A DNA stretch of 32,000 nt from Beggiatoa leptomitoformis (GTDB taxonomy: Bacteria > Pseudomonadota > Gammaproteobacteria > Beggiatoales > Beggiatoaceae), in the NCBI RefSeq assembly GCF_001305575.3, contig NZ_CP012373.2:3888799-3920798 (forward strand), written 5' to 3'. The number at the start of each line of letters is the position of its first letter. The stretch's first letter is position 1. The position numbers and the translations under genes were made by a program. Shown one piece after another: positions 1 to 26,694 of this stretch. The notes under the pieces are model-generated. The model saw only the letters and a program-made list of their open reading frames with translations, was not told the origin of the DNA and searched no databases.

Positions 1-2409
1 ACTTTCTAAACCTTGAGAGTCTTTTACCGTCAGAGTAACAACATATTGACCAATATTTGTAAAAGTATGTGTCACTATTGGACTATTTGATGTTGTGATA
101 GAAGTTTCTTCACTATCATCATCTAACGGTGAGTATTTCCACGAGTAGGAAACGATAGAACCATCAGAATCGCTTGAATCACTTGCATCTAGTGTTGTTG
201 TTAAAGGACTTGCGCCCTTATTTGGGGATAAACTAAAACTGGCAATTGGCGGTTTAGCTGGTGTTTCACCAGTTACTTCACATTCGTATTTTGCGTTGAA
301 AGTTCCTAAATTAGCGTCAGAATCATCGCAATCTTTCTCAGCTTTACAAGATAATGGACAAGTTGAGGGTTTTTCCTCAGATATTCCCCAGTTGCAATAA
401 TTATCATTATCTTTATCAACACAAACAATCTGGCGTGCTTTAGCAAGACTATTAATTGGTGGTTCGATAGCCATGACACTTAAGTTTTTAGGTTCTAGTT
501 TGATATAAGCAAAACCATTTTCAGCAGAGCCTTCGGATTTATATTTACCCCAATGCGATATTTTCCCTGTCTTCTCATTGACAATATCGCCCATAGCTCC
601 AGCTCCTCCCCAACCTCCACTCCAACTATTTTTAAAAATCCAAATAGTTCTTCCATCTAAATCAGTTTCGAAACCAACTAATATCATGGCATGACTAAGA
701 CTCCAAACAGCCGCGACTAAAGGACCTTTTTCGATGAGCAATTTCTTTATATCATCTTCATTATCTTCACTTAAATCAAAATATGAACCTGCTTTATTTA
801 TACTAACTTTTTCACTAAAAATAGATTGTTTATCAGAGCAGGCTAGTAAATCTGTTGCTTTATAAGGGAAGGCATTCTCGTCAACAATACCTAAAGTGAG
901 ATATTTCTGAGGAATAGTAAACATTGGTCCGCCGTTGCAAGAACCTAGTTTTCTTTTTACAAGTTTTCCGTTTTCATCTGTAAACTCGATTTCAGGATTA
1001 CAAGACAATACATCTTGCTCAGATAAATCCAAACTTAGCTGTTGATTAAAATAAAGGTTGGTAACTGCTTCTAAAGTGCCTGTATCAGCAAAGGCCCAAC
1101 AACTTCCACAATTACCTTGATCCTTTACAGCAGTAACCCAATTTTCTCCATGTCTATTCCGCCAATCAAAACTGTCGACCAAAGCACTTTGTCGCCGAGT
1201 TTTTCTCAAATTGCGTGTATCATTTGGGTTTTTAGATTTTAAATCAAATATACCACCTCGGTAATATTCAAAACCCTGCAAATTAAGTTCTCCAACTTCA
1301 GTTTCATCATCAGCTAATGCACCAGTTAAATGTTTTTTTTCTGCATAAGTTAAATTAGAAACAGCGGTTTCCCCGGCAATCCATCCAATATCTTGTTGTT
1401 CGTTAAGCTTTTGGACAATAACAGTATTTTGTTGTTTTATTACTGTTTCTGTACTAGAAGATAACGGGGTATTAACGTAGTAAATCTCAGGAATGCTAAG
1501 TACAGCACTTTTCGCTTCAAGACGTAGTGAAAAAGTGTGAATTGTTTTTGGTAAAACACAACTCTCTTGGCAAACAGCGTTAAAAACTAAATAATCTGAC
1601 AACCAGTTAAATTTTTCTTCTTCTGTTAATTCCTGATAACTCTTTTGATATACCAGATACTCCCTTTTTGTCTCGTTATCAATTAATACCACTCGAACAA
1701 AGGCAGAAGTATCTATTCCGCCGACTCCTGAAAATATTGTGTCTATAATATTTAGCATTAATCTAATTTTGATGGCTAATGCACTAATATTAATAATATT
1801 ATCTATATTGATAGTAGTTGTTTCAAAATTAAAAATGGATGCTGAAACCTCAAGGTTTACAGATTGACTTATAGTTTCTGCTTCAATGGGAATTGAAAAT
1901 GCTTTTGCTTCATTAGCAACTAGGTTTGGTATTGTAACAAATGTTAGATTCTCTAGAGCTAGGGTTGTAGAACAACAGACATATGTAACAGGAAATATTA
2001 TTCCCGTTTTTTCTGACCAAGTAAAAGTGTCGTCTCTTTTCGCAAAATAGAAACCATTAACACTGGAATTATTTGTCAGCATGAAAGACCAAGAGTAATC
2101 ACCACTACCACACATTAGAGGGGAACTTTCGTCGTAAACTGCCAGTCCATCAGTAAGAAGCCGAATCCAAAAACTGCTACAATTAGAATCTGTAACCTCG
2201 TAATTAAAATGAATTGTGATTTTTTGCCCATTAGCAACAGTGCTTCCACTGGGAATAGAAGTACGAATATTGCTAAATTTGACATTACCAACTGTTAAAC
2301 TGTCCGTAGCAAAACTGGGTTGGAGTAAAAATCCTACTAGCCATAAAGTTAGGATGAGCAGTTTTAAAAAAATATAACGAAGGTCATTCTTTGTTTGAAT
2401 CCTGAACAT
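1..2409 (-). CDS. Secreted papain-family (peptidase C1) cysteine protease with a C-terminal Cys/Asp-rich module and PKD domain; the 3' end runs off the window
   Basis: Not in the ORF track because no stop codon lies inside the window. Manual minus-strand translation from ATG 2409-2407 (GAGGTG 6 nt upstream) stays open to nt 1, 803 codons. The N-terminus MFRIQTKNDLRYIFLKLLILTLWLVGFLLQPSFA/TD looks like a Sec signal peptide. Papain triad motifs are present: VKDQGNCGSCWAF (Cys codon 1099-1101), SLSHAMILVGF (His codon 691-693) and IFKNSWSGGWGG (Asn codon 628-630). A cathepsin-B-like GWIAGETAVSNLTYAEKKHLTG lies just upstream. A Cys/Asp-rich CVDKDNDNYC..KDCDDSDA module is at 250-423. A PKD-like TLDASDSSDSDGSIVSYSW..HTFTNIGQYVVTLTVKDSQG is at 1-249. 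Confidence 0.85.
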   Translation of the reverse strand, partial: MFRIQTKNDLRYIFLKLLILTLWLVGFLLQPSFATDSLTVGNVKFSNIRTSIPSGSTVANGQKITIHFNYEVTDSNCSSFWIRLLTDGLAVYDESSPLMCGSGDYSWSFMLTNNSSVNGFYFAKRDDTFTWSEKTGIIFPVTYVCCSTTLALENLTFVTIPNLVANEAKAFSIPIEAETISQSVNLEVSASIFNFETTTINIDNIINISALAIKIRLMLNIIDTIFSGVGGIDTSAFVRVVLIDNETKREYLVYQKSYQELTEEEKFNWLSDYLVFNAVCQESCVLPKTIHTFSLRLEAKSAVLSIPEIYYVNTPLSSSTETVIKQQNTVIVQKLNEQQDIGWIAGETAVSNLTYAEKKHLTGALADDETEVGELNLQGFEYYRGGIFDLKSKNPNDTRNLRKTRRQSALVDSFDWRNRHGENWVTAVKDQGNCGSCWAFADTGTLEAVTNLYFNQQLSLDLSEQDVLSCNPEIEFTDENGKLVKRKLGSCNGGPMFTIPQKYLTLGIVDENAFPYKATDLLACSDKQSIFSEKVSINKAGSYFDLSEDNEDDIKKLLIEKGPLVAAVWSLSHAMILVGFETDLDGRTIWIFKNSWSGGWGGAGAMGDIVNEKTGKISHWGKYKSEGSAENGFAYIKLEPKNLSVMAIEPPINSLAKARQIVCVDKDNDNYCNWGISEEKPSTCPLSCKAEKDCDDSDANLGTFNAKYECEVTGETPAKPPIASFSLSPNKGASPLTTTLDASDSSDSDGSIVSYSWKYSPLDDDSEETSITTSNSPIVTHTFTNIGQYVVTLTVKDSQGLES

Positions 2410-2428: not shown

Positions 2429-2450
2429 CGTTACCAAAAAATTGGTAACG
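2429..2450 (-). promoter_or_regulatory. Perfect 9-bp stem / 4-nt loop hairpin in the 5' leader of the protease gene
   Basis: CGTTACCAA aaaa TTGGTAACG is a perfect inverted repeat 20 nt upstream of the ATG at 2409. Neither strand has a U-tract after it, so it is more likely a leader structure than a terminator. Confidence 0.3.
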
Positions 2451-3048
2451 AGAAATACCCAAAAACTAAAGGAAAAGTATGTTGTTGTTACTTATTTTGA
2501 CAACTGAAGTTACCGCTTGAACTACATTGACAACTAGAACTGGTACTAAAGTTGAACCAAGTAAGAGTATTAATGCCATTTTTAAATAGCACTACGTAAA
2601 GTATAATAAAATATAAAAAATATCAATTTACAATAAATTAGACAACTTTTTACTTTATTGTAAAGTGATAGTGTTTTTTTATCCTAATTTGTAAACCATG
2701 AATTCTCAAACAGCAGAAAAATTTAAAAATAAAATAACTATTGTCAATAATTTGTCTATGTTTACTAACATAAATGGTTTTTGCTTAAGAAACTTTATTT
2801 TCTTTAAATATGGTTAGAGAAATAGTAGGCTTTTTGGTTGGAAAACGTGATACGAGTGGTATAGCAATATTATGGAAACCCATTTCAGTGGTTTATCTTT
2901 AATGCGCAGTGCGTTATGCGAGTTTTTTGGAAGCGTCAAAGAGGGTTAGCAAACGTCTTAACAATGCATTGAAACAGCAAGTTAGTCGATTGGTAAAACT
3001 TTATCATTCTCTAAGAAATTGCAAAACCACATAGTGGCTATTGTTTCT

Positions 3049-3177
3049 TTCATTGGTAATGCTAAAGATACAAAACTGACGCAGTTTGGGACGCGGGATT
3101 ATGAGGCGGAAATCGGGCGGTGGATAATGACAGACCCGATTGGAGTTGATGGTAAACAGGTAGATTTATACCCTTAA
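3049..3177 (+). pseudogene. Orphan RHS/YD-repeat core C-terminal fragment (no start codon, no toxin tip)
   Basis: Frame-1 translation gives FIGNAKDTKLTQFGTRDYEAEIGRWIMTDPIGVDGKQVDLYP*. This matches the conserved end of RHS core domains (F.GG.YD.DTGL.RFGARDYD...GRW...DPIG..GG.NLY.Y). The frame opens only at 2986 after a TAG, has no ATG before the motif, and stops right after LYP. Confidence 0.6.
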
Positions 3178-3242
3178 TGTTAATAGTGTTTTTCATCCTC
3201 ATCAATTACATTCTAGTAGTTCAGCTAATTCTGGTTCAGGCA

Positions 3243-3268
3243 GGCACTAGCATTAGTGCCGTTTTTTT
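3243..3268 (+). terminator. Rho-independent terminator (plus strand) overlapping the last codons of the convergent kinase gene
   Basis: GGCACTA gcat TAGTGCC is a 7-bp stem, followed by GTTTTTTT on the plus strand. The minus strand has no U-tract after the stem. Confidence 0.5.
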
Positions 3269-6200
3269 AAAACCAGCAGTGTAATATCATCTTTTAATTT
3301 ATCCCCACTGAGATGCGCTCGCACATCGGCGATAACAGCATGGTTAATTTCTGCTACCGATTTTGACCAAAAATGACTGACTACATCACATAAACGTTTT
3401 ACGCCGTATTGGTGTTTTTCAGGATTTAAGGCTTCAGTTATGCCGTCAGTATAAAGCACAATACCATCCCCTACTTGTAATATAACTTCTTGATAGTTAA
3501 TCAAGTCGTTAATCTCTTCTTCTAATCCTATGGGAAAACCCAAAGCGGTTGTATTAATACGTTCAACTTGTCCATCTTGTCGTACAACGAGTATTTCTTC
3601 GTGTTGTCCTGTCATGCGTAAAACGGTTAATGAACTATCTAGGGGGGAGGGATAACAATCAATGAGGCTTAAGGTTAAACTTTTGTCTGAACCCATTCGT
3701 TGAATATTGGCATAAACCGCACGGTTAATAATGGGTAAAAAGGCTTCTGGGGTGGCTAGTTGTGTTTCTAGTAAGGTGCGAACGGCCATTTGTATCATGA
3801 GCATAATCACGCCACTTTCTAACCCATGTCCTGTTACATCACCAATTCCAATAAGAGTATGTTCTGCACATTGTAAAATATCATAGTAATCCCCCCCTAC
3901 TTCGTCGGCAGGTTCCATAAAGGCGGCAACGTCTAGGCCTCTCACTTGGGTTAATTCTGTCTCTGTCGGTAATAACATGCGTTGTAGTTGGCGAGAAACG
4001 GATAATTCTGCCCCCATACGCGCATTTTCTGAGGCTAATTGTTCGTTGTGTTGTAAGGTTTTAATTAGGCGCATGTGTTCTTGTTCTGCGCGTTTACGGT
4101 CGGTAATATCATGTAATGCGGTGAGAATGACGCGTTCATCTGCATAGGTTGCTTGTTGGGTTGAAATCGCTACCCAAACGGGCGAGCCGTCGGCTTTGAG
4201 TAGTTCAACTTCATAATCTTTTACTTTGCCTTTATTTTGTTTGTATAAAGAGACATATTTTTGCTGGTCTGTTGTGTAGCGGTACAATTCGCCTATCGTG
4301 CGTTCCACTAAATCGGGAATGCTATATCCAAAGGTTTGGCTACTTTGTGGATTCGCATACAAAATCATGCCTGATTCGGGTTTGATGATAAAAATAGGCA
4401 CGGGCATGGTTTCAGCAATCACGCGGAAACGTTCTTCACTTTCTTGTAATGCACGGGTAAAGCCTTGACGTTCTACTTCGGCATTTTTAATGTCGGTGAT
4501 GTCATAGTACGCGCTGAGAAGTACGTTTTGATTAACAAAGCGAATAGGATGCACAAAAAGCGCGACCCATACGGATTGGTTGTAAACATTACGAAATTCA
4601 ATTTCATAATTGCTGACTGAGCCAAAACGTCGGAATGCGCCCACCACTTTTTCGCGGTCATCAGGGTTGCGATAAAAATCAAGCGTACGATATTGATTAA
4701 TCAGGGTACTGGGTGGTAAGCCGAAAATAGATTCAATGCGAGGATTTGCGTATAAAATGAGTCCATCTTCTGCACGGCTGATGGATAGGGCTATCGGTGT
4801 GGTTTCGGTAATAATCCGTAATCGTTCTTCATTTTCGCCTAATGTTTTATATAAACGCGCATTATCTAAAGAGATGGCCATTTGATTAGATAATAGACTT
4901 AGGATTTCTACCCGTTCTGGGGTGAATACACTGGTCGCAAGATTGTTTTCTAGGTATAAAATACCGCTTAGTTTACCCTTATTTAACATGGGCATACATA
5001 AGATGGATTTAATTTGTTGGCTGGCAACATAGGGGTCGCGGGTAAACTTGCCCATATTGCACGCATCGTTTAATACGACACAATCTTGTACGCGAATGAC
5101 ATAATTAACGAGGGTGATAGGCAGCGATAATGCGGCGTTTTCTAAAGGTAAATCTTGTAAAATTTCGACATGTTCTGCATTCAATGCACCTTCGGCTTCA
5201 ATAACCCAATGTCCATTTTGTTCTAGCACTAATAAGCTACGTTGCGCGCCTGCATTTTCTAAGACAATTTGCATGAGTTTTTTGAGCAATTTGCCTAAGT
5301 CTAATTCGCTAGTGGTGGCTTGCGAGGCTTTTAAAATGCTAGCAAAATCTAGCATGTTGGGTAGCCCTTGTTGGGTTATTAAGGTTGTAATGGTTGTTGT
5401 TTGGGCGGAACTGTCTCGTTGCGAAAATAAATTGCTGTGGCGAATTTCTAATTCTTTGGCCTTTGCTATGGCTCCCCAGCGGATATAGGCGTAATGGGCA
5501 TCACGTAAACAGGCGTATGCGTATTTAACTAAACCGCGCTGTAAATAAAATTGTCCTGCTAATTCGCAAGCAATGGCTTCTTCGTTTAAATAGCCTTGTT
5601 CATGCGCAAGATGAATTGCTTGGTCGTAATATTCACGGGCTTCTTTATCATGTTTTAAGGCACGTTCCCGTTCTGCGGCAACCAAGTAATATTTATGTTG
5701 TTGGTTATCTGGTGAAAAAGTTGCCCATAGTTGTAGTTTTTTCTGATTTTTATCTACTGTGCGTAAAATGTGTTTTTGTTCACGGGGTGTAACTTGTGGA
5801 TAAATACTTAAGAGTATTAATGATTCATAAAAATGAAAAAAAGCAAATGGTATTGAACCAATCGTGCCATTTAAATATTGTGCTGCACAATTAATATAGT
5901 CCCTTGCTTTGTAAGGTTCTTGAAAGTAATAAGCTAAAATAGCCTTGTTGAAATAGTTATGATACAAAGCGGTACGATTGTTATGTTTTTTATACATAAC
6001 TATCGACTCTTCTTCATTGTATGCCGTGCCGACCAGTTGACTAGGATTTTCTGGGGATTGTCCCCGTAGGTTTAAGATAGTTTGATGATAAATTTCAATT
6101 AAATTAACAGCCGCTGCTTGGCGTAGTTGCCGAATTTCTTGGCTATACGCGGTCATTTCTTTTTCTAAATTTTCTAAGGGTTCACCAATCAGGGCGGCAT

Positions 6201-9200
6201 AGGCAAGACGGGCAAACATGCTGAGGCTTGCAAAATCAAATTCGCCCATTTCTAACCCAAGTCGCCACACATCCCGCAAGGGGTTTAAAATACTGCGAAC
6301 AGGGTTGCGCCAATGCCGAATGAAGGCGTTGACGATGAAAAAAGTTTTGGTTCGAAATTCACGATTGTTGAGGCGTTCACTTAATTGCACCGCCAATTCA
6401 CCGAATTGATAACCGCTTTCAATAAATCCCGTGCCACATAGCCGTTGTCCGTAAGTTGCGTAGGCATACGCTGAAACAGGGGTATTGCCAAAATCTACCG
6501 ATAATTGAATCAAGCGGAAAGTGATTAGGGGCATTAAATTGGGTTGGGCAGCATACGCGGCAGAAGTTGCGTGATTTAAAATCTGCATTGCCGCGAGTTT
6601 TTCGGGGTTAGTCATCTCGGGCAGTTCTAAAAGGCTAGGCATATCGCCTGAGGTTAACGCAAATTTCATGCGTAACTCGCCTAACCAAATATGCCAACGA
6701 CTGGGGTTATCTGGCAGACGAATGCCCAATTTACGTAGGGCATGGCGGGCAATATTTAAGGCATCGCGAAACCGTCCTTGAGCGCGAGCAGCTTGAATAC
6801 GGACTTCATAAATACGGATTTTATCTAGTAAACTTCGGGCATTGCGTAATACACGCAATGCTAATCGTTCCATTTCATCGGCATCACCAATGTAGTAGGC
6901 AACTTCTGCCCCTTCAGTAGTGACGGCTAAAATAAGGGCGTAATCTGTTTGCCAATATTGAACGGTAAATAGGTTGAGTGCCGCACTAAGATAGCGAAAA
7001 GCGGATTCGTAAGCTGCAGCGGCTTTTGCTTTACGTGCTGCGGCTAGGTTTAAGTTAGCAATTAGAATTTTATCACTGGTTTCAGTGACAAGGGGAATGC
7101 CTAAGTTAAAATGGTTGGTGATTTCGAACAATTCATCAATGGATTTGTTTTCTCCAATTTTTTGATTTAGTAACCGTCCAATTTTTAAATGATTTTTTTG
7201 CTTATTGATTTCATTCAAAAGATTATAAGCCGTTTCTTGCACACGGTTATGCAGAAAACGAAACACATTGCCATCGGAATCAGGGAGGGGAGCGATAAGA
7301 TTTGCTTCTAAGGCGGGTAATAGTTCTTGTGTCGTTTCAATCACTGATTTGTCATAGACATCCGCAACAATTTGTATATCAAATGGATTACCCAAACAGG
7401 CGGCAATAGAGAGCAAGTATTGGGTATCTTCAGGTAATTTTTGTAGTTTATGAATTAATAAGTCTGCCACATTATCCGTAATACTGGCTTCTTCAATCGC
7501 TTCTAAATTCCATTGCCACTGTGGTTGTCGTTGTCCATTTTCTTGTAGTTGAAAATGTAAGTTGAGTAAATTTTCTTCATACAGTGTTTTAATGAACTGT
7601 TGGATAAATAATGGATTTCCATCAGTTTTATGTAATATAACTTCAGCAAGGGGGTGAATTTGTTGTCGTTTGGCGTGGAGAGTATCGATTAATAATTGAG
7701 TAATAGCTTCTAAATCTAAGGGTTGCAAAGTGATTTGCAGGGTAATCGTCATCGATTTACGTAATTCGTCTAACGTTAATGTCAGTGGGTGTAACTCGTC
7801 CACTTCGTGCTGACGGTAAACACCAATCACTAATAAATAACGGGTTTCTTCATCTCGTAACAACATGGAGAGGAGTTTTAATGAAGCACTGTCTGCCCAT
7901 TGCAAATCGTCCAGCACAATGGCTAGGGGGTGTGATGGTTGACAAAATACTTTCATAAAACTCAAAAACACGCGGTTAAATCGGTTTTGAGCCTCTAAAA
8001 AACCTAAATTTTGTTCAGCATTCGCTTGTTCGCCAATAATTAATGCAACTTCTGGAATAACATCAATAATCAATTGTCCATTGCTGCCTAAAGCACTTAA
8101 TAAGCGTTTTTTCCATTTGGCTAGTTGTGCTTCACTTTCTGTTAAGACTTGACGAACTAATTCACCAAAAACATCTAAAATGGCCGTGTAAGGGGTAGTG
8201 CTTTGAAATTGTCCAAATTTACCTGTGATAAAATGTCCTTGTTGTTGCAAAACAGGTTTATACAATTCCCGAACAACCGTTGTTTTACCAATGCCCTCAT
8301 CTCCTGAGACTAACACCATTTCCGTGCAACCCTGACTCACCCGCTCAAAGGCATCCAGTAGTTCTATAACAGCACGGCTATTACCATATAATTTATCTGG
8401 AATTTGTAAAATTGTGGTAATATCATTTTGTCTTAATATAAATAATTCAATGGGTTGTTCACGGATTGATTGTTCAAAACAGTGGGTTAAATCCATTTGC
8501 AAGCCGTAAGCACTTTGATAGCGCAACTCGGCATTTTTTTCTAATAAACAGAAGATGATAGCGGATAAAATTGGCGGGACATCTACTCTGATGGTCTGTG
8601 GCAATGCAGGTTGTTTGGCAATATGACAATGTACCAGCTCTAACGGGTCGCTGGTTTCAAACGGTAATCGCCCCACTAACATTTCATAAAGGGTAATACC
8701 AAATGAGTAAAAATCTGTCCGATAATCCAGCGGACGACTCATCCGCCCCGTTTGTTCAGGGGATAAGTAATGGAGCGTTCCTTCTAATTTTTCGATACTT
8801 TTTAATGAGGGATTTTCTCGAGGCAGTACACTGGCAATGCCAAAGTCTATGAGCTTTAATTCACCAGAAGCAGGATTGTAAACAATGTTACTGGGGTTAA
8901 TGTCTTTGTGAATAACATGTTCGGCGTGAATTTCACCAATAGCTTGCGTGATTTTAATCGCTAGAAACAAAAAGGTTGTTATGTTTAATTCACGATGACG
9001 TAACCACTCTTTTAAGGAAAGACCCGCAATATCTTCTAACACCATCACCAGCGTATTTTTATATTTTTCTAACGCATAGACACGAATCACATTACTTTCT
9101 GAAGAAGGCGCGCTTTTTTGTAATCGATTTAAAATGTCATATTCACGTTGATACTGTGCTAATTCTGTCGGACTTGGGTAATCTGATTTTAAAAGCTTTA

Positions 9201-9303
9201 ACACAACAGGCATCGCATCACTCACCCGCGTTGCACGGTAAGCAATTGATTGTGTCCCTTCATAAATTTTATCGTCAATCCGGTAGCCCGGTAGAGTAAG
9301 CAT
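3253..9303 (-). CDS. Giant multidomain signalling protein: Ser/Thr protein kinase, AAA_16/STAND-type P-loop NTPase, helical (TPR-like) repeats, GAF, PAS, PAS, SpoIIE/PP2C phosphatase
   Basis: 2016-aa ORF with GGGGAG upstream of the ATG. Kinase motifs are VVLK (K36), IHKDINPSN (D133), DFG (153-155) and SPE (181-183). The P-loop is GDEGIGKT (334-341, nt ~8281-8304) and Walker B is VLDDLQWAD (463-471). GAF is about aa 1319-1489 (nt 4837-5349). The PAS domains are about aa 1490-1610 and 1620-1740 (nt 4474-4836 and 4084-4446). PP2C is about aa 1766-2016 (nt 3256-4008), with GGDYYD, GDVTGHG, YTDGITEA and DDITLLVLK. Confidence 0.95.
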   Translation of the reverse strand: MLTLPGYRIDDKIYEGTQSIAYRATRVSDAMPVVLKLLKSDYPSPTELAQYQREYDILNRLQKSAPSSESNVIRVYALEKYKNTLVMVLEDIAGLSLKEWLRHRELNITTFLFLAIKITQAIGEIHAEHVIHKDINPSNIVYNPASGELKLIDFGIASVLPRENPSLKSIEKLEGTLHYLSPEQTGRMSRPLDYRTDFYSFGITLYEMLVGRLPFETSDPLELVHCHIAKQPALPQTIRVDVPPILSAIIFCLLEKNAELRYQSAYGLQMDLTHCFEQSIREQPIELFILRQNDITTILQIPDKLYGNSRAVIELLDAFERVSQGCTEMVLVSGDEGIGKTTVVRELYKPVLQQQGHFITGKFGQFQSTTPYTAILDVFGELVRQVLTESEAQLAKWKKRLLSALGSNGQLIIDVIPEVALIIGEQANAEQNLGFLEAQNRFNRVFLSFMKVFCQPSHPLAIVLDDLQWADSASLKLLSMLLRDEETRYLLVIGVYRQHEVDELHPLTLTLDELRKSMTITLQITLQPLDLEAITQLLIDTLHAKRQQIHPLAEVILHKTDGNPLFIQQFIKTLYEENLLNLHFQLQENGQRQPQWQWNLEAIEEASITDNVADLLIHKLQKLPEDTQYLLSIAACLGNPFDIQIVADVYDKSVIETTQELLPALEANLIAPLPDSDGNVFRFLHNRVQETAYNLLNEINKQKNHLKIGRLLNQKIGENKSIDELFEITNHFNLGIPLVTETSDKILIANLNLAAARKAKAAAAYESAFRYLSAALNLFTVQYWQTDYALILAVTTEGAEVAYYIGDADEMERLALRVLRNARSLLDKIRIYEVRIQAARAQGRFRDALNIARHALRKLGIRLPDNPSRWHIWLGELRMKFALTSGDMPSLLELPEMTNPEKLAAMQILNHATSAAYAAQPNLMPLITFRLIQLSVDFGNTPVSAYAYATYGQRLCGTGFIESGYQFGELAVQLSERLNNREFRTKTFFIVNAFIRHWRNPVRSILNPLRDVWRLGLEMGEFDFASLSMFARLAYAALIGEPLENLEKEMTAYSQEIRQLRQAAAVNLIEIYHQTILNLRGQSPENPSQLVGTAYNEEESIVMYKKHNNRTALYHNYFNKAILAYYFQEPYKARDYINCAAQYLNGTIGSIPFAFFHFYESLILLSIYPQVTPREQKHILRTVDKNQKKLQLWATFSPDNQQHKYYLVAAERERALKHDKEAREYYDQAIHLAHEQGYLNEEAIACELAGQFYLQRGLVKYAYACLRDAHYAYIRWGAIAKAKELEIRHSNLFSQRDSSAQTTTITTLITQQGLPNMLDFASILKASQATTSELDLGKLLKKLMQIVLENAGAQRSLLVLEQNGHWVIEAEGALNAEHVEILQDLPLENAALSLPITLVNYVIRVQDCVVLNDACNMGKFTRDPYVASQQIKSILCMPMLNKGKLSGILYLENNLATSVFTPERVEILSLLSNQMAISLDNARLYKTLGENEERLRIITETTPIALSISRAEDGLILYANPRIESIFGLPPSTLINQYRTLDFYRNPDDREKVVGAFRRFGSVSNYEIEFRNVYNQSVWVALFVHPIRFVNQNVLLSAYYDITDIKNAEVERQGFTRALQESEERFRVIAETMPVPIFIIKPESGMILYANPQSSQTFGYSIPDLVERTIGELYRYTTDQQKYVSLYKQNKGKVKDYEVELLKADGSPVWVAISTQQATYADERVILTALHDITDRKRAEQEHMRLIKTLQHNEQLASENARMGAELSVSRQLQRMLLPTETELTQVRGLDVAAFMEPADEVGGDYYDILQCAEHTLIGIGDVTGHGLESGVIMLMIQMAVRTLLETQLATPEAFLPIINRAVYANIQRMGSDKSLTLSLIDCYPSPLDSSLTVLRMTGQHEEILVVRQDGQVERINTTALGFPIGLEEEINDLINYQEVILQVGDGIVLYTDGITEALNPEKHQYGVKRLCDVVSHFWSKSVAEINHAVIADVRAHLSGDKLKDDITLLVLKKRH

Positions 9304-9533
9304 TGTTCTTATTCTCCCCCGCTCTCATCTATCATTAATAAACAAGCAATCGTGTTAATTTGTTTTATAGTCGGTTTAGCAAGTTATAAGCCATTTACTA
9401 ACATAATGTAGTACAAACAATTCAATCGATAATTATCGCACTTAGCCATTATATAGGCGATAGAAACCATTAATAAACTAACGACCTTTTTAAATTGATT
9501 TATTGCCTATCAATAAACGCAGGATACTACAAC

Positions 9534-10094
9534 ATGTTACTGTCTTTTTGTCACGGTACGATTATTACAGCATTACTATTTATCACCGCCTGCACCCCCT
9601 ATTCGCCTACAAATCTCCCGCGTGCCTCGCAAGGCATGAGAGCAGATGAAACGGCTAACGACTGGTTTAGGCAAATAGACGATAGAAATAAAAACTATAA
9701 TCAATCACGCGAACAAGAACAGCAACAAGACACCCAGTGGTGGCAAACACGCACAACAAAACGGTCAGAACATTCATCTCCCGCCATCACGCAACAACCC
9801 ACAGACGCAGACAGCCAATCGTCATGGGGTGCAATGCAGGCAAAACAACGCTTTTTATCCCTGCACCAAGCCCCCATTGAATCATCCAGCGCGACACCTA
9901 CCGACCTTTATGAGCAGTGGAATGTTGACAGAAAACAACGGGCGGAAACCGCCAGAATAAACCGCGAAACAGAAGAGTTTGACCGCCAAGCATGGGAAGC
10001 ACAATTGCAACAATGGCGAGAAACTGACCCCATCAAGAGAGAAAAACGCCGTCTTGAACGGATGCGAGAACAACACGACTACCACCGTTATTGA
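9534..10094 (+). CDS. Hypothetical lipoprotein, Q/E/R/W-rich and probably disordered
   Basis: The track ORF is 9495..10094. An internal ATG at 9534 (AGGA ~10 nt upstream) gives MLLSFCHGTIITALLFITAC, a lipoprotein signal peptide with lipobox I-T-A-C. The remainder is polar low-complexity sequence with repeated QW/WW motifs. I recognise no family. Confidence 0.55.
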   Translation: MLLSFCHGTIITALLFITACTPYSPTNLPRASQGMRADETANDWFRQIDDRNKNYNQSREQEQQQDTQWWQTRTTKRSEHSSPAITQQPTDADSQSSWGAMQAKQRFLSLHQAPIESSSATPTDLYEQWNVDRKQRAETARINRETEEFDRQAWEAQLQQWRETDPIKREKRRLERMREQHDYHRY

Positions 10095-10145
10095 TAAAAT
10101 CAATCAGTCATTATCCAATTATTTACCAAAGGACGTTATATTTTT

Positions 10146-15071: not shown

Positions 15072-15948
15072 TAGCAACAGTACTATAAAAAGATTAAATA
15101 GAATTCAGTAAAAAGAGCTCATCAATAGAACAATGTTGTTGTTTACGGAGAGTCTTAGCTTGAGCCCATTTATGCTCAATAGGATTTAAATCAGGCGAAT
15201 AAGGCGGTAAATATTCCAAGAGATGCCCAGCGTCTAAAATAGCCTGCTGAATGTCACTACGTTTATGAAAAGTGGCGTTATCCATCACAATCACAGAATT
15301 CTGAGGGAGTTTGGGAAGTAAGTCTTGGGTTATCCAAGCGAAAAAGACATCGGAATTAATCGTGCCAGAAACTAAAGAGACCGTTAATAAACAAAAATTG
15401 AGCAAAGCCCCGATGACATTGGTACGTCCCTTTGCATTCCAGTCTTGCGTGCCAAAGCAACGTTTGCCGATAGGTGCATAACCAAAACGGCGTGGCATAT
15501 CATGGGCAAAACCACTTTCATCGATGAAAACAATTTGCCTATTAGATTGTTTATAACGGTTCATTTTATCTTGAAAGACTTGCCGTGCTTCGGGGTTGGC
15601 TTTGGGGTGTTTGAGGGTTTTTTTTACGGCTAATCCCTAGACGTTTTAACGCATGGCGAATCCCGCCTTCCGTAATCCCAAAACGGGCTGCGCGTTCATA
15701 ATGGTAAGCATCGGGATATAACGCCACATCTTGTCTTAAGGCTTCCATATCTATTTTAGTTGGTCTGTTACGTGTCCCTTTGGCTTCCAATACTTTGCTC
15801 CACCTGACGACGCTTGCGATGGCTATTTGAAAGCGTTTCGCTACCGCTGCTAGGGTGAGATTTTCTTCTTGTTTCACTTTATAATACTTTTTTACGGAAA
15901 TCTATTGAATAGGTCATTTCTTATTCTCTTTTTAAAATACGGTTACTA
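15072..15948 (-). mobile_element. IS630-family (ISY100-like, Tc1/mariner superfamily) insertion sequence, about 877 bp, flanked by TA
   Basis: The imperfect terminal inverted repeats are TAGCAACAGTACTATAAAAAG (15072-) and the reverse complement of CTTTTTAAAATACGGTTACTA (-15948). TA lies on both sides (15070-71 and 15949-50). It encodes a DDE/D transposase. Confidence 0.85.
15094..15917 (-). CDS. IS630-family transposase, split into three reading frames at two poly-A runs
   Basis: MTYSIDFRKKVL* starts at ATG 15917. It is followed by track ORF 15566..15877 (HTH: LTLAAVAKRFQIAIASVVRW) and track ORF 15094..15564 (DDE: VFIDESGF, VIVMDNATFHK, YSPDLNPIEHKW). Removing one A from the A6 run (plus-strand T-run 15888-15893) and one A from the A8 run (15618-15625) fuses all three into a transposase of about 270 aa. 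Confidence 0.8.
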
Positions 15949-23798: not shown

Positions 23799-23944
23799 TG
23801 TGATTAATAATGCCGTTTTTTTCAATGATAAATGTTAAAAAAGGCTTATACATCGTCATGGAAAGAAACTTGCTTAACACACTCATCATATCGTTAAACA
23901 GTGCTATTTATTTAAATACATTATGCCCACTTTCTTGCTTAAAA
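23799..23944 (+). repeat. Direct repeat copy 2 (146 bp): functional promoter and start of the GGDEF-EAL gene
   Basis: See copy 1. It contains the real ATG at 23923. Confidence 0.9.
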
Positions 23945-26694
23945 AATCTTATCTAACCTTAATATTCGTTGCCATTCTTGGCTGTGGTTTGTCTTTCTTT
24001 GCTTTTAATCACACACAAAAATGGGAAGAACAGCAAGTTATGCAAGAAAAAGAGGCTCTACTTGATCACTATATTCGTTTATTACGTCAAGCCTCATTAA
24101 CAGTAGATCAGCTACTCGGCTCTTTGCGCGGGTTATATTCGATAAAACAAAAAATAGAACATGAAGACTTTGCCTTACTGGTTAATCAAGAGCTTTTAAC
24201 GGATTGGATAGTTGGTTTTACATGGTCTCCCTACATTAAAGAGGGGCAACGTGCCGAGATAGAACAACAACTAACGACTTCTTTTTGGCAATATAACAAC
24301 CAACAACAAGCGGTTATTACACCAACGCAGGTAGATTACTATCCGATTCTCTTTGCTGAACCCAAAGAACGTTTTAAAACACTCATTGGTTTTGATGTAA
24401 ACACAGTTTATTCATTCAATTTTTTACACAGCAGTAGTGTATTACTCTCTTTTCAAATGCCACATGGGGCAGAGAAACAGCTACATGTTTTTCTACCTAT
24501 TTATACCGAAGCACTAAAACCCATTGGTTTTTTTACGGCGATATTACAACTCAATACTTTTATTGATGTTCTGCTTCGTCCTGCCAAACAACGCTATGAA
24601 GTTTTTCTTGTTATACGTGACACTCGTTCACCCAATCCACAAAATATCATTTATGCCCCCGATTGGTATGCACAAGATAAGACCTTACAAAATGAAAAGA
24701 ATACTATTCTCAGTGTTCCTATAGAATTTGAAGGGCAACAATGGCGCATTGAATTACACCATCTTCTTGCTGGAACAAGCATTTACTACGCTTATGCGTG
24801 GATGGTTTTATTCATGGGCATATTATTTACAATCGGTTTAACCCGTTATTTGTACGTTGTGCTTAACCACAGTGCGCAAACAGAAATATTAGTAAGTCAA
24901 CGAACACAAAAATTAATTGCTGTTAATCAAACCCTGCATGAAGAAATGCTCGTTCGTGAACAAATGACTACAGCTTTGATTGCCGCAGAACAAAAGTTCC
25001 GCGCTATTTTTGAAAATGCCATTGAAGGTATTTTTCAATGTACCCCTGATGGCGATTTTTTAAGCATTAATCCAGCATTTGCCCGTCTATTTGATTTACC
25101 ACAAGCAGTAAATGGTGACACACAAGTACATTATCGCAAAAACAATTTTTTTCTACATCCATCTGATTATAATGAATATATTATACACCTTACTCAGCAA
25201 GGTGAAGTAAAAGACTATGAGTATCAAGCTATTTGCATTACCAAACAAATTGTCTGGGTTAGTGAAACCACCAAAGCCGTTTATAATGCGACAGGCGAGT
25301 TACAACATTATGAAGGTATTATAGAAAATATTACCGAGCGGAAAAAACAAGAAGAAGAGTTACGCTATGCCGCCTCTCATGACTTGCTTACAGGGCTTTA
25401 TAATCGCAACGCATTTACCGAACGGCTTGCCTATGTACTACAGCAACAACAGGATAAATTTTCTGCTGCCAATCACATCCCCTTTGCCGTACTTTTTATT
25501 GATTTAGACCGATTTAAAATCGTCAATGACAGTATGGGGCATTTAATGGGGGATAAACTGCTTAAACAGATGGCTGAGCGATTAGCAACGACAATACAAC
25601 AGTTTACTGCCATGATTGCACGTTTTGGGGGAGATGAATTTGCCTTGCTAATAGAAGAAATCCCCGATTTGGAGACGTTGGAAACCTATATAGAACAAGT
25701 ACAGCAACAACTTAATCAGCCTTATGAATTAGAAGGGGAAATATTCATAACAACGGCAAGTATTGGCATTGCCCTCAGTGCATCACATTACACCTGTCCA
25801 AATGAGATTTTGCGCGATGCGGACACGGCTATGTATGCCGCTAAAAAACAAGGGTTGGGGAAATATGCGTTTTTTCAGCAGGGTATGCACACACACATTG
25901 TTCATATCATGCGCATGGAGTCAGACCTACGTAAAGCCTTTGAACGTAACGAATTATGTATTTATTATCAACCCATTATTGCACTAGAGAAACAACACAC
26001 CGTTGGATTAGAAGCCCTGATTCGTTGGCAACATCCACAACGTGGGTTAATTTCACCCGATGAATTTATTCCCCTTGCTGAAGAAACGGGATTAATTCAA
26101 GAATTAGGACGCTGGGTTTTTAGCACGGCTTGTGTACAGCTCTATCAATGGCAGCAACGTTATCCACAACATGCCAATTTAGGGATTAATATCAATGTAT
26201 CCCCTATCCAATTTAAACAACCGCGTTTAGTACGTGAGATTCAAGATATTATTGAACGAGCGGGCATTTCCCCGCGTAGTTGCCGTTTAGAAATCACAGA
26301 AAGTGCCATGATGTATAACCCAGAGGAAACACTGAAAACATTGCAAGAACTGAAAGAGTTGGAAGTTCAATTATATATAGATGATTTTGGAACAGGCTAT
26401 TCATCACTGAGCTATTTACAAAAATTTCCCATTGATGCCCTTAAAATAGATAAAAGTTTTATTCGCGATTTAGAAAATGACCCTCGCTCACACCAAATAG
26501 CACAAGCAATTATTGCATTAGGAGAAGCCTTTAATTTAAAAACCATCGCCGAAGGGGTAGAAACGCAACAACAACTTTCTATTTTAAAAATGGCGGGTTG
26601 TCATCATGTGCAAGGATTTCTCTTTTCCCGCCCTCGCCCACTCAGTGATATTGAACAATATTTATGTGCAGAAACCAAATACGACATTATTTAA
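23923..26694 (+). CDS. Membrane sensor CHASE-PAS-GGDEF-EAL protein (diguanylate cyclase / phosphodiesterase)
   Basis: TM helices lie at about aa 10-28 and 288-312, flanking a CHASE-like periplasmic domain (VGFTWSPYIKEGQRAEIEQ, DYYPILFAEP..LIGFDV). PAS: FRAIFENAIEGIFQCTPDGDFLSINPAF. GGDEF: SHDLLTGLYNR, RFGGDEF at aa 567-573, with no RxxD I-site. EAL: GLEALIRW at aa 695-702, DDFGTGYSSL, KIDKSFI. Confidence 0.95.
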   Translation: MPTFLLKKSYLTLIFVAILGCGLSFFAFNHTQKWEEQQVMQEKEALLDHYIRLLRQASLTVDQLLGSLRGLYSIKQKIEHEDFALLVNQELLTDWIVGFTWSPYIKEGQRAEIEQQLTTSFWQYNNQQQAVITPTQVDYYPILFAEPKERFKTLIGFDVNTVYSFNFLHSSSVLLSFQMPHGAEKQLHVFLPIYTEALKPIGFFTAILQLNTFIDVLLRPAKQRYEVFLVIRDTRSPNPQNIIYAPDWYAQDKTLQNEKNTILSVPIEFEGQQWRIELHHLLAGTSIYYAYAWMVLFMGILFTIGLTRYLYVVLNHSAQTEILVSQRTQKLIAVNQTLHEEMLVREQMTTALIAAEQKFRAIFENAIEGIFQCTPDGDFLSINPAFARLFDLPQAVNGDTQVHYRKNNFFLHPSDYNEYIIHLTQQGEVKDYEYQAICITKQIVWVSETTKAVYNATGELQHYEGIIENITERKKQEEELRYAASHDLLTGLYNRNAFTERLAYVLQQQQDKFSAANHIPFAVLFIDLDRFKIVNDSMGHLMGDKLLKQMAERLATTIQQFTAMIARFGGDEFALLIEEIPDLETLETYIEQVQQQLNQPYELEGEIFITTASIGIALSASHYTCPNEILRDADTAMYAAKKQGLGKYAFFQQGMHTHIVHIMRMESDLRKAFERNELCIYYQPIIALEKQHTVGLEALIRWQHPQRGLISPDEFIPLAEETGLIQELGRWVFSTACVQLYQWQQRYPQHANLGININVSPIQFKQPRLVREIQDIIERAGISPRSCRLEITESAMMYNPEETLKTLQELKELEVQLYIDDFGTGYSSLSYLQKFPIDALKIDKSFIRDLENDPRSHQIAQAIIALGEAFNLKTIAEGVETQQQLSILKMAGCHHVQGFLFSRPRPLSDIEQYLCAETKYDII

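What the first reader, a model, noticed from the sequence alone, without database searches (positions are those of the whole stretch)
3253..9303. 2016-aa protein with an apparently active Ser/Thr kinase and an apparently active PP2C phosphatase on one STAND-NTPase scaffold
Domain order, with residues counted by hand:
- Ser/Thr kinase, aa 1 to ~290 (K36, D133 in HKDINPSN, DFG 153-155, SPE 181-183).
- AAA_16/STAND-type P-loop NTPase (GDEGIGKT 334-341, Walker B VLDDLQWAD 463-471).
- About 800 aa of helical/TPR-like repeats.
- GAF, aa ~1319-1489.
- PAS x2, aa ~1490-1740.
- Coiled-coil linker.
- SpoIIE/RsbU-type PP2C, aa ~1766-2016, with all four Asp-containing motifs conserved (GGDYYD, GDVTGHG, YTDGITEA, DDITLLV).

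The kinase-AAA_16-GAF chassis is familiar from cyanobacterial multidomain kinases, which usually end in a histidine-kinase module. Here the output is a phosphatase, so opposing activities are fused. SpoIIE-type phosphatases normally act on STAS-domain partner-switching proteins, but no STAS, anti-sigma or FHA gene lies nearby. The neighbours are an RHS scar and a lipoprotein. The protein may therefore be a self-contained, ligand-gated (GAF/PAS) and nucleotide-gated (STAND) phospho-switch, or it may act on distant substrates.
Basis: partly seen in the sequence, partly recalled or inferred. Interest (0 to 1): 0.7.

Follow-up and report, generated by a model that had tools for sequence, protein, structure and literature searches.

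The report
Multi-sensor kinase–STAND protein with phosphatase output
This 2016-residue Beggiatoa protein is real and has the domains described. It belongs to a very large family of bacterial signalling scaffolds that swap their output module, and its phosphatase most likely acts on a small switch protein encoded elsewhere in the genome rather than opposing its own kinase.

Summary
One residue is miscounted: the catalytic Asp is D134, not D133. The protein is 100% identical to a Beggiatoa leptomitoformis protein annotated "AAA family ATPase".

The architecture is not rare. All 120 closest database clusters carry Pkinase+AAA_16+GAF+SpoIIE. The kinase–STAND–TPR–GAF chassis has over 11,000 representatives at E≤1e-30. 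Its outputs are interchangeable: histidine kinase, PP2C, GGDEF, cyclase, HD-GYP and sigma-54 activator. The kinase therefore belongs to the chassis and is not a dedicated antagonist of the PP2C.

The PP2C falls in a SiaA-like clade. About half of the non-chassis members of that clade sit directly upstream of an slr1658 (SiaB-like) plus slr1659 (STAS/SiaC-like) gene pair. None of the chassis-fused members do (0/13, p≈4e-4). B. leptomitoformis and B. alba each encode such a pair without an adjacent phosphatase, followed by a PAS-GGDEF-EAL gene.

Best model: a sensor phosphatase acting in trans on that partner switch. This is inferred, not shown. I found no experimental paper on the family. Verdict: a common but undescribed variant of known kinds, of moderate interest.

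The parts
3253..9303 (-). Complete ORF of 2016 aa plus stop. Identical to the B. leptomitoformis protein annotated 'AAA family ATPase' (P0001).
8434..9303 (-). Hanks-type Ser/Thr kinase domain, aa 1-290. K36, E54, H132-K133-D134, N139, D153-F-G, S181-P-E, D197 and R261 are present. It is a non-RD kinase (HKD), and its Gly-rich loop is degenerate (aa 13-22, IYEGTQSIAY).
   Evidence: Pfam Pkinase E 7e-36. PknB/Stk1 alignment. Conservation. Fold TM 0.85 to PknB.
7825..8394 (-). AAA_16 / STAND P-loop NTPase core, aa 304-493. Walker A is GDEGIGKT (334-341); Walker B is VLDDLQWAD (463-471).
   Evidence: Pfam AAA_16 E 3e-39. Motifs invariant in 120 homologues.
5350..7806 (-). Helical and winged-helix arm followed by a TPR-like alpha-solenoid, aa ~500-1318. 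This is the STAND sensor/scaffold part.
   Evidence: AF2 model, pLDDT mostly 80-95. Foldseek hit to the STAND-TPR protein 6MFV over 831 columns. Weak Pfam TPR_CHK1.
4867..5301 (-). GAF domain, aa 1335-1479.
   Evidence: Pfam GAF E 1e-15. Confident in the AF2 model. Foldseek hits to GAF structures such as 5W10.
4474..4821 (-). PAS domain A, aa ~1495-1610. Part of an insertion found in the Beggiatoa pair and in few other family members.
   Evidence: Pfam PAS_3 1516-1591, E 6e-11. Most homologues lack it. The AF2 model is poor here because the alignment is shallow.
4099..4434 (-). PAS domain B, aa 1624-1735.
   Evidence: Pfam PAS/PAS_9, E 4e-21 / 8e-23. NCBIfam sensory_box.
3973..4134 (-). Long single helix, aa ~1724-1777, linking PAS-B to the phosphatase. 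Putative dimeric coiled-coil signalling linker.
   Evidence: AF2 helix at residues 425-478 of the model. Mechanistic precedent in PMC12143880.
3256..3951 (-). SpoIIE/RsbU/SiaA-type PP2C (PPM) phosphatase domain, aa ~1785-2016. Metal-binding Asp residues are D1805 (GGDYYD), D1822 (GDVTGHG), D1953 (YTDGITEA) and D2005/D2006 (DDITLLV).
   Evidence: Pfam SpoIIE E 2e-33. Closest solved structures are SiaA 6K4E, Rv1364c and RssB. Motifs invariant. pLDDT ~90-97.

Best explanation
The gene encodes a cytoplasmic, multi-input signalling protein. It belongs to the very large 'Ser/Thr-kinase – STAND NTPase – TPR – GAF' chassis family, which includes cyanobacterial HstK-type and fungal CHK1/Mak-type proteins. 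Here the usual histidine-kinase output is replaced by a SiaA/RsbU-type PP2C phosphatase.

Proposed mechanism:
1. Signals are sensed by the STAND/TPR module (nucleotide-dependent conformational change or oligomerisation), the GAF domain and the two PAS domains. This step is inferred.
2. The signal passes through the ~54-residue helical linker to the PP2C. This would follow the coiled-coil linker mechanism described for RsbU, RsbP and RsbZ. This step is inferred by analogy.
3. The active PP2C dephosphorylates, in trans, the 114-aa slr1659-family STAS/SiaC-like protein of the same genome (P0295). The slr1658-family (SiaB-like) protein encoded next to P0295 would be its kinase. This step is inferred from gene neighbourhoods in relatives and from the absence of a phosphatase gene beside the pair in Beggiatoa.
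4. That pair is followed by a PAS-GGDEF-EAL gene, so the likely downstream output is c-di-GMP turnover, as in P. aeruginosa SiaABCD. This is the most speculative step.

The N-terminal Hanks kinase is a constant part of the chassis, whatever the output. All its catalytic residues are intact, so it is probably catalytically competent. It most likely serves auto-regulation of the scaffold rather than forming a purpose-built antagonist pair with the PP2C.

Shown: the domain composition, the conserved catalytic motifs, the folds, the family size, the modular outputs, the neighbourhood statistics, and the existence and context of the slr1658/slr1659 pair.
For: Identity and domains.

Catalytic residues conserved across 120 homologues.

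Folds:
- PP2C to SiaA, TMt 0.81.
- Kinase to PknB, and STAND-TPR to 6MFV.

Family size: 70,027 / 32,735 / 11,563 representatives at E ≤1e-3 / 1e-10 / 1e-30 for the chassis alone.

Interchangeable outputs among the 152 nearest representatives:
- Histidine kinase 87, SpoIIE 19-20, GGDEF 8, cyclase 6.
- Also sigma-54 AAA+/HTH_8, AAA_35, HD-GYP, HisKA_3 and Hpt.
- O. acuminata has three tandem chassis paralogues, two with a cyclase and one with a PP2C.
- Ca. Parabeggiatoa has chassis-HK, REC-SpoIIE, chassis-SpoIIE and HK-REC-SpoIIE genes in a row.
- HK-REC-SpoIIE chassis variants exist (L037).

Kinase motifs are conserved equally in all output classes.

The PP2C clade:
- 79 GTDB loci carry PP2C domains 45-61% identical to this one.
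- 33 of 64 non-chassis genes are followed within 2 kb by slr1658 + slr1659, against 0 of 13 chassis genes (Fisher p = 3.7e-4).
- Family assignments were checked with NCBIfam and Pfam: slr1659_superfam E 1e-49 to 3e-34, with weak STAS and SiaC hits; slr1658 family E 7e-73, with a weak SiaB-kinase hit at E 1e-5.
- The closest non-orthologous PP2C (61%, Ca. Parabeggiatoa L007) is followed by slr1658-slr1659.
- In an NJ tree, PP2C domains group by taxon rather than by N-terminal architecture.

The candidate substrate:
- B. leptomitoformis encodes slr1658-slr1659 (P0295) at ~0.457 Mb with no adjacent phosphatase, followed by PAS-GGDEF-EAL.
- B. alba has the same arrangement.
- Pairs without an adjacent phosphatase also occur in Ca. 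Halobeggiatoa and Ca. Parabeggiatoa.
- The window gene lies at ~3.89-3.90 Mb of the same chromosome.

Mechanistic precedents:
- Coiled-coil linker control of PPM phosphatases, and modular exchange of PPM, HK and GGDEF outputs: PMC12143880.
- The SiaABCD mechanism: PMC7278518 and PMC7647112.
Against: - No experiment links any chassis-PP2C protein to slr1659. The link rests on gene neighbourhoods of related PP2C domains, not on this protein.
- About half of the non-chassis PP2Cs of the clade also lack an adjacent slr1658/slr1659 pair. Adjacency is therefore not a defining trait of the clade.
- I could not search the whole B. leptomitoformis genome. Other PP2Cs that could serve the pair, and other STAS proteins that could be substrates, are not excluded.
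- Similarity of slr1658 to SiaB kinase, and of slr1659 to SiaC/STAS, is below the curated cut-offs.
Only seven hits were verified against curated libraries.
- The trees are NJ without bootstrap support.
- The PAS region and the dimeric state were not modelled with confidence.
- If the kinase were only a scaffold part, strict conservation of all its catalytic residues would be unexpected. It does something catalytic that this model leaves vague.
Confidence: 0.45

Rival explanations
1. Self-contained phospho-switch. The Hanks kinase autophosphorylates the protein or a neighbouring protomer in the STAND oligomer. The C-terminal PP2C removes those phosphates. GAF/PAS ligands and the nucleotide state set the balance, and the phospho-state controls oligomerisation or an unknown partner.
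For: - Both catalytic centres are intact and under strong purifying selection.
- No substrate gene is adjacent in any of 13-16 chassis-PP2C loci.
- There is a precedent for a kinase, a PP2C and their substrate in one chain: Rv1364c, one of the closest solved PP2Cs (PMC12143880).
Against: - The same kinase domain, with the same motifs, heads chassis proteins with HK, GGDEF, cyclase and other outputs that have no phosphatase.
- The same PP2C clade works without any Hanks kinase in REC-, PAS- and HK-REC-fused proteins, and often sits next to slr1658/slr1659.
- About 10% of chassis relatives, including 2 of 18 SpoIIE-output representatives, have D134N. Kinase catalysis is therefore dispensable in some members.
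- All known SpoIIE-family substrates are STAS or STAS-like proteins (established knowledge). The protein contains no STAS domain.
Confidence: 0.15
2. The PP2C acts in trans on a different substrate. Candidates are a classical RsbV/SpoIIAA-type anti-sigma antagonist controlling a sigma factor, or phospho-Ser/Thr proteins produced by Hanks kinases, including the protein's own kinase acting on third parties.
For: - The SpoIIE-family HMM and fold match RsbU, Rv1364c, RssB and SpoIIE.
- About half of the clade's PP2C genes have no slr1658/slr1659 pair nearby.
- The genome was not searched exhaustively.
Against: - Where this PP2C clade has an adjacent partner, it is nearly always slr1658 + slr1659. 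RsbW-like ORFs were found in only 5 of 84 loci.
- Both Beggiatoa genomes keep an slr1658/slr1659 pair with no adjacent phosphatase.
Confidence: 0.25
3. Anti-phage or conflict STAND system: a kinase-bearing STAND NTPase that senses infection and fires an effector.
For: - STAND NTPases with kinase domains occur in defence systems.
- PADLOC and NCBIfam give hits to PD-T4-6, Mad6, MkoA and PglW.
- The family is enriched in multicellular filamentous bacteria.
Against: - All defence hits cover only the generic kinase domain (aa 6-284) and fall far below family cut-offs.
- The output modules are ordinary signalling domains (HK, GGDEF, cyclase, PP2C), not toxic effectors.
- The neighbours are housekeeping genes: MoaD/E, GatB and ribosomal proteins.
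- The gene is syntenic between two Beggiatoa species.
Confidence: 0.03

Closest known systems
HstK-type dual Ser/Thr + histidine kinases of filamentous cyanobacteria, and fungal group X hybrid histidine kinases (S. pombe Mak2/Mak3, Candida CHK1; Pfam TPR_CHK1)
   Same: The N-terminal chassis is the same: a Hanks-like kinase with a degenerate Gly loop, AAA_16 NTPase, TPR-like helical region and GAF, with or without PAS. HstK is cited in PMC2853384. The description of the fungal proteins comes from my own knowledge.
   Different: Those proteins end in HisKA-HATPase_c, with or without REC. This one ends in a PP2C. No function or kinase activity of the chassis could be retrieved from the held literature.
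P. aeruginosa SiaA of the SiaABCD system (PP2C / SiaB kinase / SiaC phosphoprotein / SiaD cyclase)
   Same: - SiaA is the closest solved PP2C by sequence and by fold (6K4E).
- PP2Cs of this clade are typically followed by a SiaB-like (slr1658) and a SiaC/STAS-like (slr1659) gene.
- In Beggiatoa the pair is followed by a GGDEF-containing gene.
- The Sia mechanism is described in PMC7278518 and PMC7647112.
   Different: - SiaA is a membrane HAMP-PP2C encoded in the operon. Here the PP2C is fused to a 1750-aa cytoplasmic sensor and lies 3.4 Mb from the pair.
- slr1658 and slr1659 match the Sia models only below cut-off.
- The neighbouring gene is PAS-GGDEF-EAL, not a plain cyclase.
RsbU / RsbP / RsbZ-type general-stress PP2C phosphatases
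   Same: A sensor domain (PAS, GAF or REC), a helical linker, then a SpoIIE-family PP2C. [quoted passage not shown] The helix at aa 1724-1777 fits this design.
   Different: There is no adjacent RsbV/RsbW and no sigma factor. The sensor part is far larger and includes a kinase and a STAND NTPase.
M. tuberculosis Rv1364c (PAS-PP2C-RsbW kinase-STAS in one chain)
   Same: It is a precedent for a Ser kinase and a PP2C on one polypeptide. Its PP2C is among the closest solved structures (3KE6).
   Different: The Rv1364c kinase is a GHKL (RsbW-type) kinase whose STAS substrate is fused in cis. Here the kinase is Hanks-type and no STAS domain is present.
M. tuberculosis PknK and archaeal PH0952 (6MFV) STAND-TPR proteins
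   Same: PknK has a Hanks kinase fused to an AAA_16/MalT-like STAND region (from my own knowledge; one homologue, P0028, is named 'PknK' by its source). 6MFV shares the NTPase-WH-TPR fold.
   Different: Neither has GAF or PAS domains or an enzymatic C-terminal output.
Synechocystis slr1657-slr1660 locus (Slr1658; iron-starvation recovery phenotype)
   Same: It is the namesake of the slr1658 and slr1659 families found next to PP2Cs of this clade and, without an adjacent phosphatase, in Beggiatoa. The Slr1658 phenotype is cited in PMC7555055.
   Different: Its biochemistry is uncharacterised, and any link to a chassis-PP2C is untested.

Membership tests
Hanks-type (eukaryotic-like) Ser/Thr protein kinase | Match to the Pkinase profile above the curated threshold, and a kinase fold | tested here: met
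   PF00069 scores 124 bits against a 31.7 cut-off. Foldseek to PknB gives TMt 0.85.
Hanks-type (eukaryotic-like) Ser/Thr protein kinase | Catalytic residues: beta3 Lys, alphaC Glu, HxD Asp, catalytic-loop Asn, DFG Asp | tested here: met
   K36, E54, D134, N139 and D153 are present. They are invariant or nearly so in 120 homologues.
Hanks-type (eukaryotic-like) Ser/Thr protein kinase | Glycine-rich loop GxGxxG | tested here: not met
   The window has YEGTQS and the family consensus is YESANS. The loop is degenerate in all output classes.
Hanks-type (eukaryotic-like) Ser/Thr protein kinase | Phosphotransfer activity | not testable with these tools
   Needs an in vitro autophosphorylation assay.
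STAND NTPase | P-loop NTPase with Walker A and Walker B, matching the AAA_16 profile | tested here: met
   PF13191 scores 135.7 bits against a 32.6 cut-off. GxxGxGK[ST] and hhDDLQWAD are invariant.
STAND NTPase | NTPase followed by a helical/winged-helix arm and a C-terminal repeat (TPR) sensor | tested here: met
   AF2 model. Foldseek alignment of 831 columns to the STAND-TPR protein 6MFV, E 1.5e-10.
STAND NTPase | Nucleotide-dependent oligomerisation switch | not testable with these tools
   Needs biochemistry.
SpoIIE/RsbU-type PPM (PP2C) phosphatase | Profile match, PPM fold and all metal-binding Asp motifs | tested here: met
   PF07228 scores 116 bits against a cut-off of 25. Foldseek to SiaA gives E 1e-13, TMt 0.81. 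D1805, D1822, D1953 and D2005/D2006 are invariant.
SpoIIE/RsbU-type PPM (PP2C) phosphatase | N-terminal sensor joined to the PPM domain by a helical (coiled-coil) linker | tested here: inconclusive
   A 54-residue helix is predicted in a monomer model with pLDDT ~75. A dimeric coiled coil was not modelled.
Partner-switching module (PP2C + Ser kinase + STAS-like phosphoprotein) | STAS-type substrate and its kinase encoded next to the phosphatase | tested here: not met
   None is present in the window or in 13-16 chassis-PP2C loci.
Partner-switching module (PP2C + Ser kinase + STAS-like phosphoprotein) | A STAS-like protein and a candidate kinase present in the same genome | tested here: met
   P0295 matches slr1659_superfam (144 bits against a cut-off of 100). 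The adjacent protein matches the slr1658 family (244 bits against a cut-off of 200). Both are on CP018889.2.
SiaABCD-like system | The kinase is a SiaB-family member and the phosphoprotein is a SiaC-family member | tested here: inconclusive
   The SiaB_fam_kinase match scores 25 bits against a cut-off of 85. Pfam SiaC matches have E 3e-4 to 5e-3, below the gathering score.
SiaABCD-like system | A diguanylate cyclase encoded with the pair | tested here: met
   A PAS-GGDEF-EAL gene lies directly downstream of slr1659 in both Beggiatoa genomes. Functional coupling is untested.
HstK / dual Ser/Thr-histidine kinase family | C-terminal HisKA + HATPase_c module | tested here: not met
   No HisKA or HATPase_c match in the protein. 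It shares only the chassis.
Anti-phage defence STAND / kinase systems (PADLOC) | Full-length match to a defence-system model, or a defence-island context | tested here: not met
   Only the generic kinase domain (aa 6-284) matches. The neighbours are housekeeping genes.

The most novel reading that the evidence does not exclude
The Hanks kinase and the PP2C of one scaffold act on the same phospho-sites, either on the scaffold itself or on the slr1659 switch protein. The STAND oligomer would then be a nucleotide- and ligand-gated kinase/phosphatase cycle: an ultrasensitive or timing switch. It would feed a SiaBCD-like c-di-GMP module in gliding filamentous bacteria. This would be a new logic for bacterial partner switching, with two unrelated kinases (Hanks and SiaB-like) opposing one phosphatase.
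Probability: 0.1. Interest if true: 0.7.

Novelty: new variant of a known kind. Interest (0 to 1): 0.4.

Why it matters
- The kinase–STAND–TPR–GAF chassis is one of the largest families of giant bacterial and fungal signalling proteins, with more than 11,000 representatives at 50% identity clustering. I found almost no biochemistry on it.
- Its outputs are freely exchangeable, and its PP2C version belongs to a SiaA-like clade tied to the poorly understood slr1658/slr1659 pair. This gives a concrete, testable wiring diagram: giant sensor, then PP2C, then a STAS-like switch, then c-di-GMP.
- The organisms concerned (Beggiatoa and oscillatorian cyanobacteria) show behaviour such as gliding and mat formation that depends on sensing redox, light and sulfide.
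- The analysis also assigns a probable role, as a partner-switch kinase and phosphoprotein, to the Synechocystis slr1658/slr1659 genes.
- For the original claim, the result is sobering. The kinase/phosphatase fusion is common and is probably a by-product of modular output swapping rather than a designed antagonistic pair.

Tried and rejected
Literature:
- Searches with Pfam names (AAA_16 + SpoIIE + Pkinase; AAA_16 + GAF + Pkinase) returned nothing.
- The 'HstK' search gave almost only unrelated acronyms.
- The original HstK paper (PMC1222267) is not held.
- The 'group X' search gave only a passing mention.
- The eLife 2020 conflict-systems paper does not describe this architecture.

Structure and sequence searches:
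- PDB sequence searches found no solved relative of the chassis (aa 300-1320) or of the slr1658 protein.
- The AF2 model of aa 1300-2016 is unreliable across the two PAS domains (pLDDT <50). Only three or four aligned homologues have them. I drew no conclusion on PAS packing or cofactors.
- AlphaFold cannot take the full 2016 aa.

Defence hypothesis: rejected, because only the generic kinase domain matches PADLOC models.

An early misreading: I first took window 1-3250 to be gene-free, because the ORF listing omits ORFs that run off the window. It in fact holds a Peptidase_C1/PKD gene.

Searches not run:
- The third large protein search, which could have listed other PP2Cs of the same genome. 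A top-120 list would be swamped by metagenomic relatives.
- A whole-genome census of STAS, RsbW and PP2C genes in B. leptomitoformis. The tools do not allow it.

Full report
**1. The observation**

The window holds one uninterrupted ORF on the minus strand, from ATG at 9303 to the stop at 3253-3255, encoding 2016 aa.

Pfam places the following domains, all far above gathering thresholds:
- Pkinase at aa 7-262
- AAA_16 at aa 304-493
- GAF at aa 1335-1479
- two PAS domains at aa 1516-1591 and 1624-1735
- SpoIIE-type PP2C at aa 1815-2013

NCBIfam agrees and adds a sub-threshold match to the SiaA phosphatase model.

An AlphaFold2 model of aa 1-1200, built on 50 homologues, has mean pLDDT 84. It shows a kinase fold (PknB, TM 0.85), a P-loop NTPase, a winged-helix region and about 500 residues of paired helices. 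The part after the kinase aligns over 831 columns to the archaeal STAND-TPR protein 6MFV.

A model of aa 1300-2016 gives confident GAF and PP2C domains joined by a 54-residue helix. The PAS region is poorly predicted because few homologues have it. The PP2C superposes best on SiaA, Rv1364c, RssB and SpoIIE.

HKDINPSN spans 132-139, so the catalytic Asp is D134, not D133.

**2. Are the enzymes intact?**

In an alignment of the 120 closest database clusters, these residues are invariant or nearly so:
- K36, H132-K133-D134, N139, D153, S/APE, D197 and R261 of the kinase
- Walker A and Walker B of the NTPase
- the four Asp motifs of the PP2C

The αC glutamate E54 is slightly less conserved (113/120).

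The kinase is non-RD (HKD). Its glycine-rich loop is degenerate: the window has IYEGTQSIAY and the family consensus is IYESANSLVY. By the usual K/D/D criterion it counts as a kinase, not a pseudokinase, but its activity is untested.

**3. Who is it, and how common is the architecture?**

The protein is 100% identical to a Beggiatoa leptomitoformis protein annotated 'AAA family ATPase'. B. alba has an 84% identical orthologue in a partly syntenic position, sharing the lipoprotein-MoaD-MoaE side.

Every one of the 120 best clusters has Pkinase+AAA_16+GAF+SpoIIE. They come mostly from oscillatorian cyanobacteria (Microcoleus, Oscillatoria, Laspinema, Planktothrix) and from Beggiatoaceae. B. leptomitoformis itself has a 1754-aa paralogue.

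The two PAS domains are an insertion seen in the Beggiatoa pair and in few others. That pair forms a long branch, about 48% identical to the rest of the family.

Gene exchange between Beggiatoaceae and cyanobacteria has been described before. This includes a terminal SpoIIE domain thought to derive from cyanobacteria (PMC1951784; PMC5108060).

I found no paper that describes or tests this architecture.

**4. The chassis has interchangeable outputs**

I searched the chassis alone (aa 300-1320) against 1.84 billion representatives. It returned 70,027 hits at E≤1e-3 and 11,563 at E≤1e-30. The top 150 all match end to end at E<1e-215, and in most the match starts about 295 residues in, leaving room for the kinase.

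Classifying their domains gave these outputs among the 152 nearest representatives:

| Output | Count |
|---|---|
| Histidine kinase (often + REC) | 87 |
| SpoIIE | 19-20 |
| GGDEF | 8 |
| Adenylate/guanylate cyclase | 6 |
| None detected | ~30 |

A Pfam spot-check of unexplained tails added sigma-54 AAA+/HTH_8, AAA_35, HD-GYP, HisKA_3 and Hpt.

Gene neighbourhoods show the shuffling directly:
- O. acuminata has three chassis genes in tandem, two with a cyclase and one with a PP2C.
- Ca. Parabeggiatoa has chassis-HK, REC-SpoIIE, chassis-SpoIIE and HK-REC-SpoIIE genes in a row.
- Chassis-HK-REC-SpoIIE fusions exist.

The kinase's catalytic residues are conserved equally in every output class. 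About 10% of members have D134N.

I conclude that the kinase belongs to the chassis and the PP2C is one plug-in output. This matches the 'exchangeable toolkit' of PPM, HK and GGDEF outputs driven through coiled-coil linkers (PMC12143880).

**5. What does the PP2C act on?**

The window contains no STAS, RsbW-type or FHA gene. None was seen around five homologues either.

I then collected 79 loci from GTDB species genomes whose PP2C domain is 45-61% identical to this one. They come from cyanobacteria, Beggiatoaceae/Thiomargarita, Rhizobiales, Chloroflexota, Moduliflexus, Myxococcales, Deinococcota and others.

In these loci the PP2C is fused to many different N-termini: REC, PAS, HK-REC, the chassis, or unidentified.

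A conserved pair of small genes follows many of them directly:
- A ~190-aa protein of the slr1658 family (Pfam DUF6272; NCBIfam NF052618, E 7e-73), with weak similarity to SiaB kinase.
- A ~114-aa protein of the slr1659 superfamily (NF047705, E down to 1e-49), with weak STAS and SiaC matches and a conserved LNSSGI motif that resembles the DSSG phospho-site of STAS proteins.

These assignments rest.

Taking one gene per locus with enough downstream sequence, 33 of 64 non-chassis PP2C genes have the pair within 2 kb. None of 13 chassis-PP2C genes do (Fisher p = 3.7e-4).

In an NJ tree, the PP2C domains cluster by taxon rather than by N-terminal architecture. The closest non-orthologous PP2C, at 61% identity in Ca. 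Parabeggiatoa, is followed by the pair.

B. leptomitoformis has an slr1658-slr1659 pair (P0295) at about 0.457 Mb. No phosphatase gene lies next to it, and a PAS-GGDEF-EAL gene follows it. B. alba has the identical arrangement. Two other Beggiatoaceae also have pairs with no adjacent phosphatase. The window gene lies at 3.89-3.90 Mb and its paralogue at about 1.37 Mb.

The simplest reading is a many-to-one partner switch. Several sensor-PP2Cs, this one included, would converge on one slr1659 phosphoprotein whose kinase is the slr1658 protein. This is analogous to SiaA/SiaB/SiaC controlling the cyclase SiaD in P. aeruginosa (PMC7278518, PMC7647112). It is also analogous to RsbU and RsbP converging on RsbV.

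This is inference from comparative genomics. No step has been tested experimentally.

**6. Rivals**

- **Self-contained switch.** The idea that the kinase phosphates are removed by the protein's own PP2C is not excluded. It is weakened because each half occurs independently of the other (sections 4 and 5).
- **A different trans substrate.** A classical RsbV-type protein or Hanks-kinase targets remain possible, because the whole genome could not be searched.
- **Defence role.** This is unlikely. PADLOC hits cover only the generic kinase domain, the neighbours are housekeeping genes, and the outputs are signalling enzymes.

**7. Caveats**

- Domain classification of representatives and loci used HMMs built here. 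They were spot-checked against Pfam and NCBIfam.
- The trees are NJ without support values.
- 'One pair per genome' is what the top-120 list showed, not a census.

**8. Verdict**

The 'opposing activities fused' framing is literally true but over-read.

The protein is a common, uncharacterised variant of a known modular chassis with a known type of output. The most useful new lead is the proposed link to the slr1658/slr1659/GGDEF-EAL module.

Novelty: new variant of a known kind. Interest: about 0.4.

Noticed in passing
window 1..2409 (minus strand): A gene for a secreted Peptidase_C1 (papain-like) + PKD-domain protein, 1053 aa in the genome record, starts at 2409 and runs off the window start. 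The ORF listing omits it, so the region looks empty. Its GC content is unusually low (33-36%, against ~41% elsewhere).
   Followed up: partly
window 3019..3177 (plus strand): A 52-aa ORF ends in 'GTRDYEAEIGRWIMTDPIGVDG', which resembles the conserved C-terminal core motif of RHS/YD-repeat proteins.
   Followed up: no
window 15094..15877 (minus strand): An IS630-family transposase is split into two adjacent ORFs: HTH_Tnp_IS630 (103 aa) and DDE_3 (156 aa). This is either a programmed frameshift or a decayed copy.
   Followed up: no
window 23923..26694 (plus strand): A 923-aa CHASE-PAS-GGDEF-EAL protein, another c-di-GMP signalling gene in the same window.
   Followed up: no
L085 9356-12536 (B. 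leptomitoformis) and L086 7345-10544 (B. alba): A conserved trio, slr1658-family (DUF6272) – slr1659-family STAS/SiaC-like – PAS-GGDEF-EAL, with no adjacent PP2C. It looks like a SiaBCD-type module without its phosphatase gene.
   Followed up: partly
L048, L055, L057, L060, L061, L064 and other Rhizobiales loci, ~7200-11750: A conserved four-gene block. It consists of a 391-aa protein with an slr1659-like N-terminus fused to a SAM methyltransferase, then an ~800-aa PP2C, then slr1658-like and slr1659-like genes. The methyltransferase fusion is unexplained.
   Followed up: partly
L003 1-13313 (Oscillatoria acuminata PCC 6304): Three chassis paralogues lie in tandem on one strand, two ending in an adenylate/guanylate cyclase domain and one in a PP2C. 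This captures output swapping directly.
   Followed up: partly
L005 992-21367 (Ca. Parabeggiatoa HSG14): Five consecutive signalling genes: chassis-HK, REC-SpoIIE, chassis-SpoIIE, PocR-HK-REC-SpoIIE and, after a type ISP restriction enzyme gene, Reg_prop/Y_Y_Y-HK-REC-SpoIIE. This is a marked local expansion of PP2C outputs.
   Followed up: no
representatives P0158, P0140/P0180/P0190, P0137: Chassis proteins with unusual outputs: a sigma-54 AAA+ activator with an HTH_8 DNA-binding domain, a second NTPase (AAA_35), and an HD-GYP phosphodiesterase.
   Followed up: partly
kinase domains of chassis representatives: About 10% of chassis relatives have Asn in place of the catalytic Asp (D134N), while K36 and the DFG Asp are kept at close to family-wide frequency. 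This suggests a recurrent drift toward pseudokinase status.
   Followed up: no
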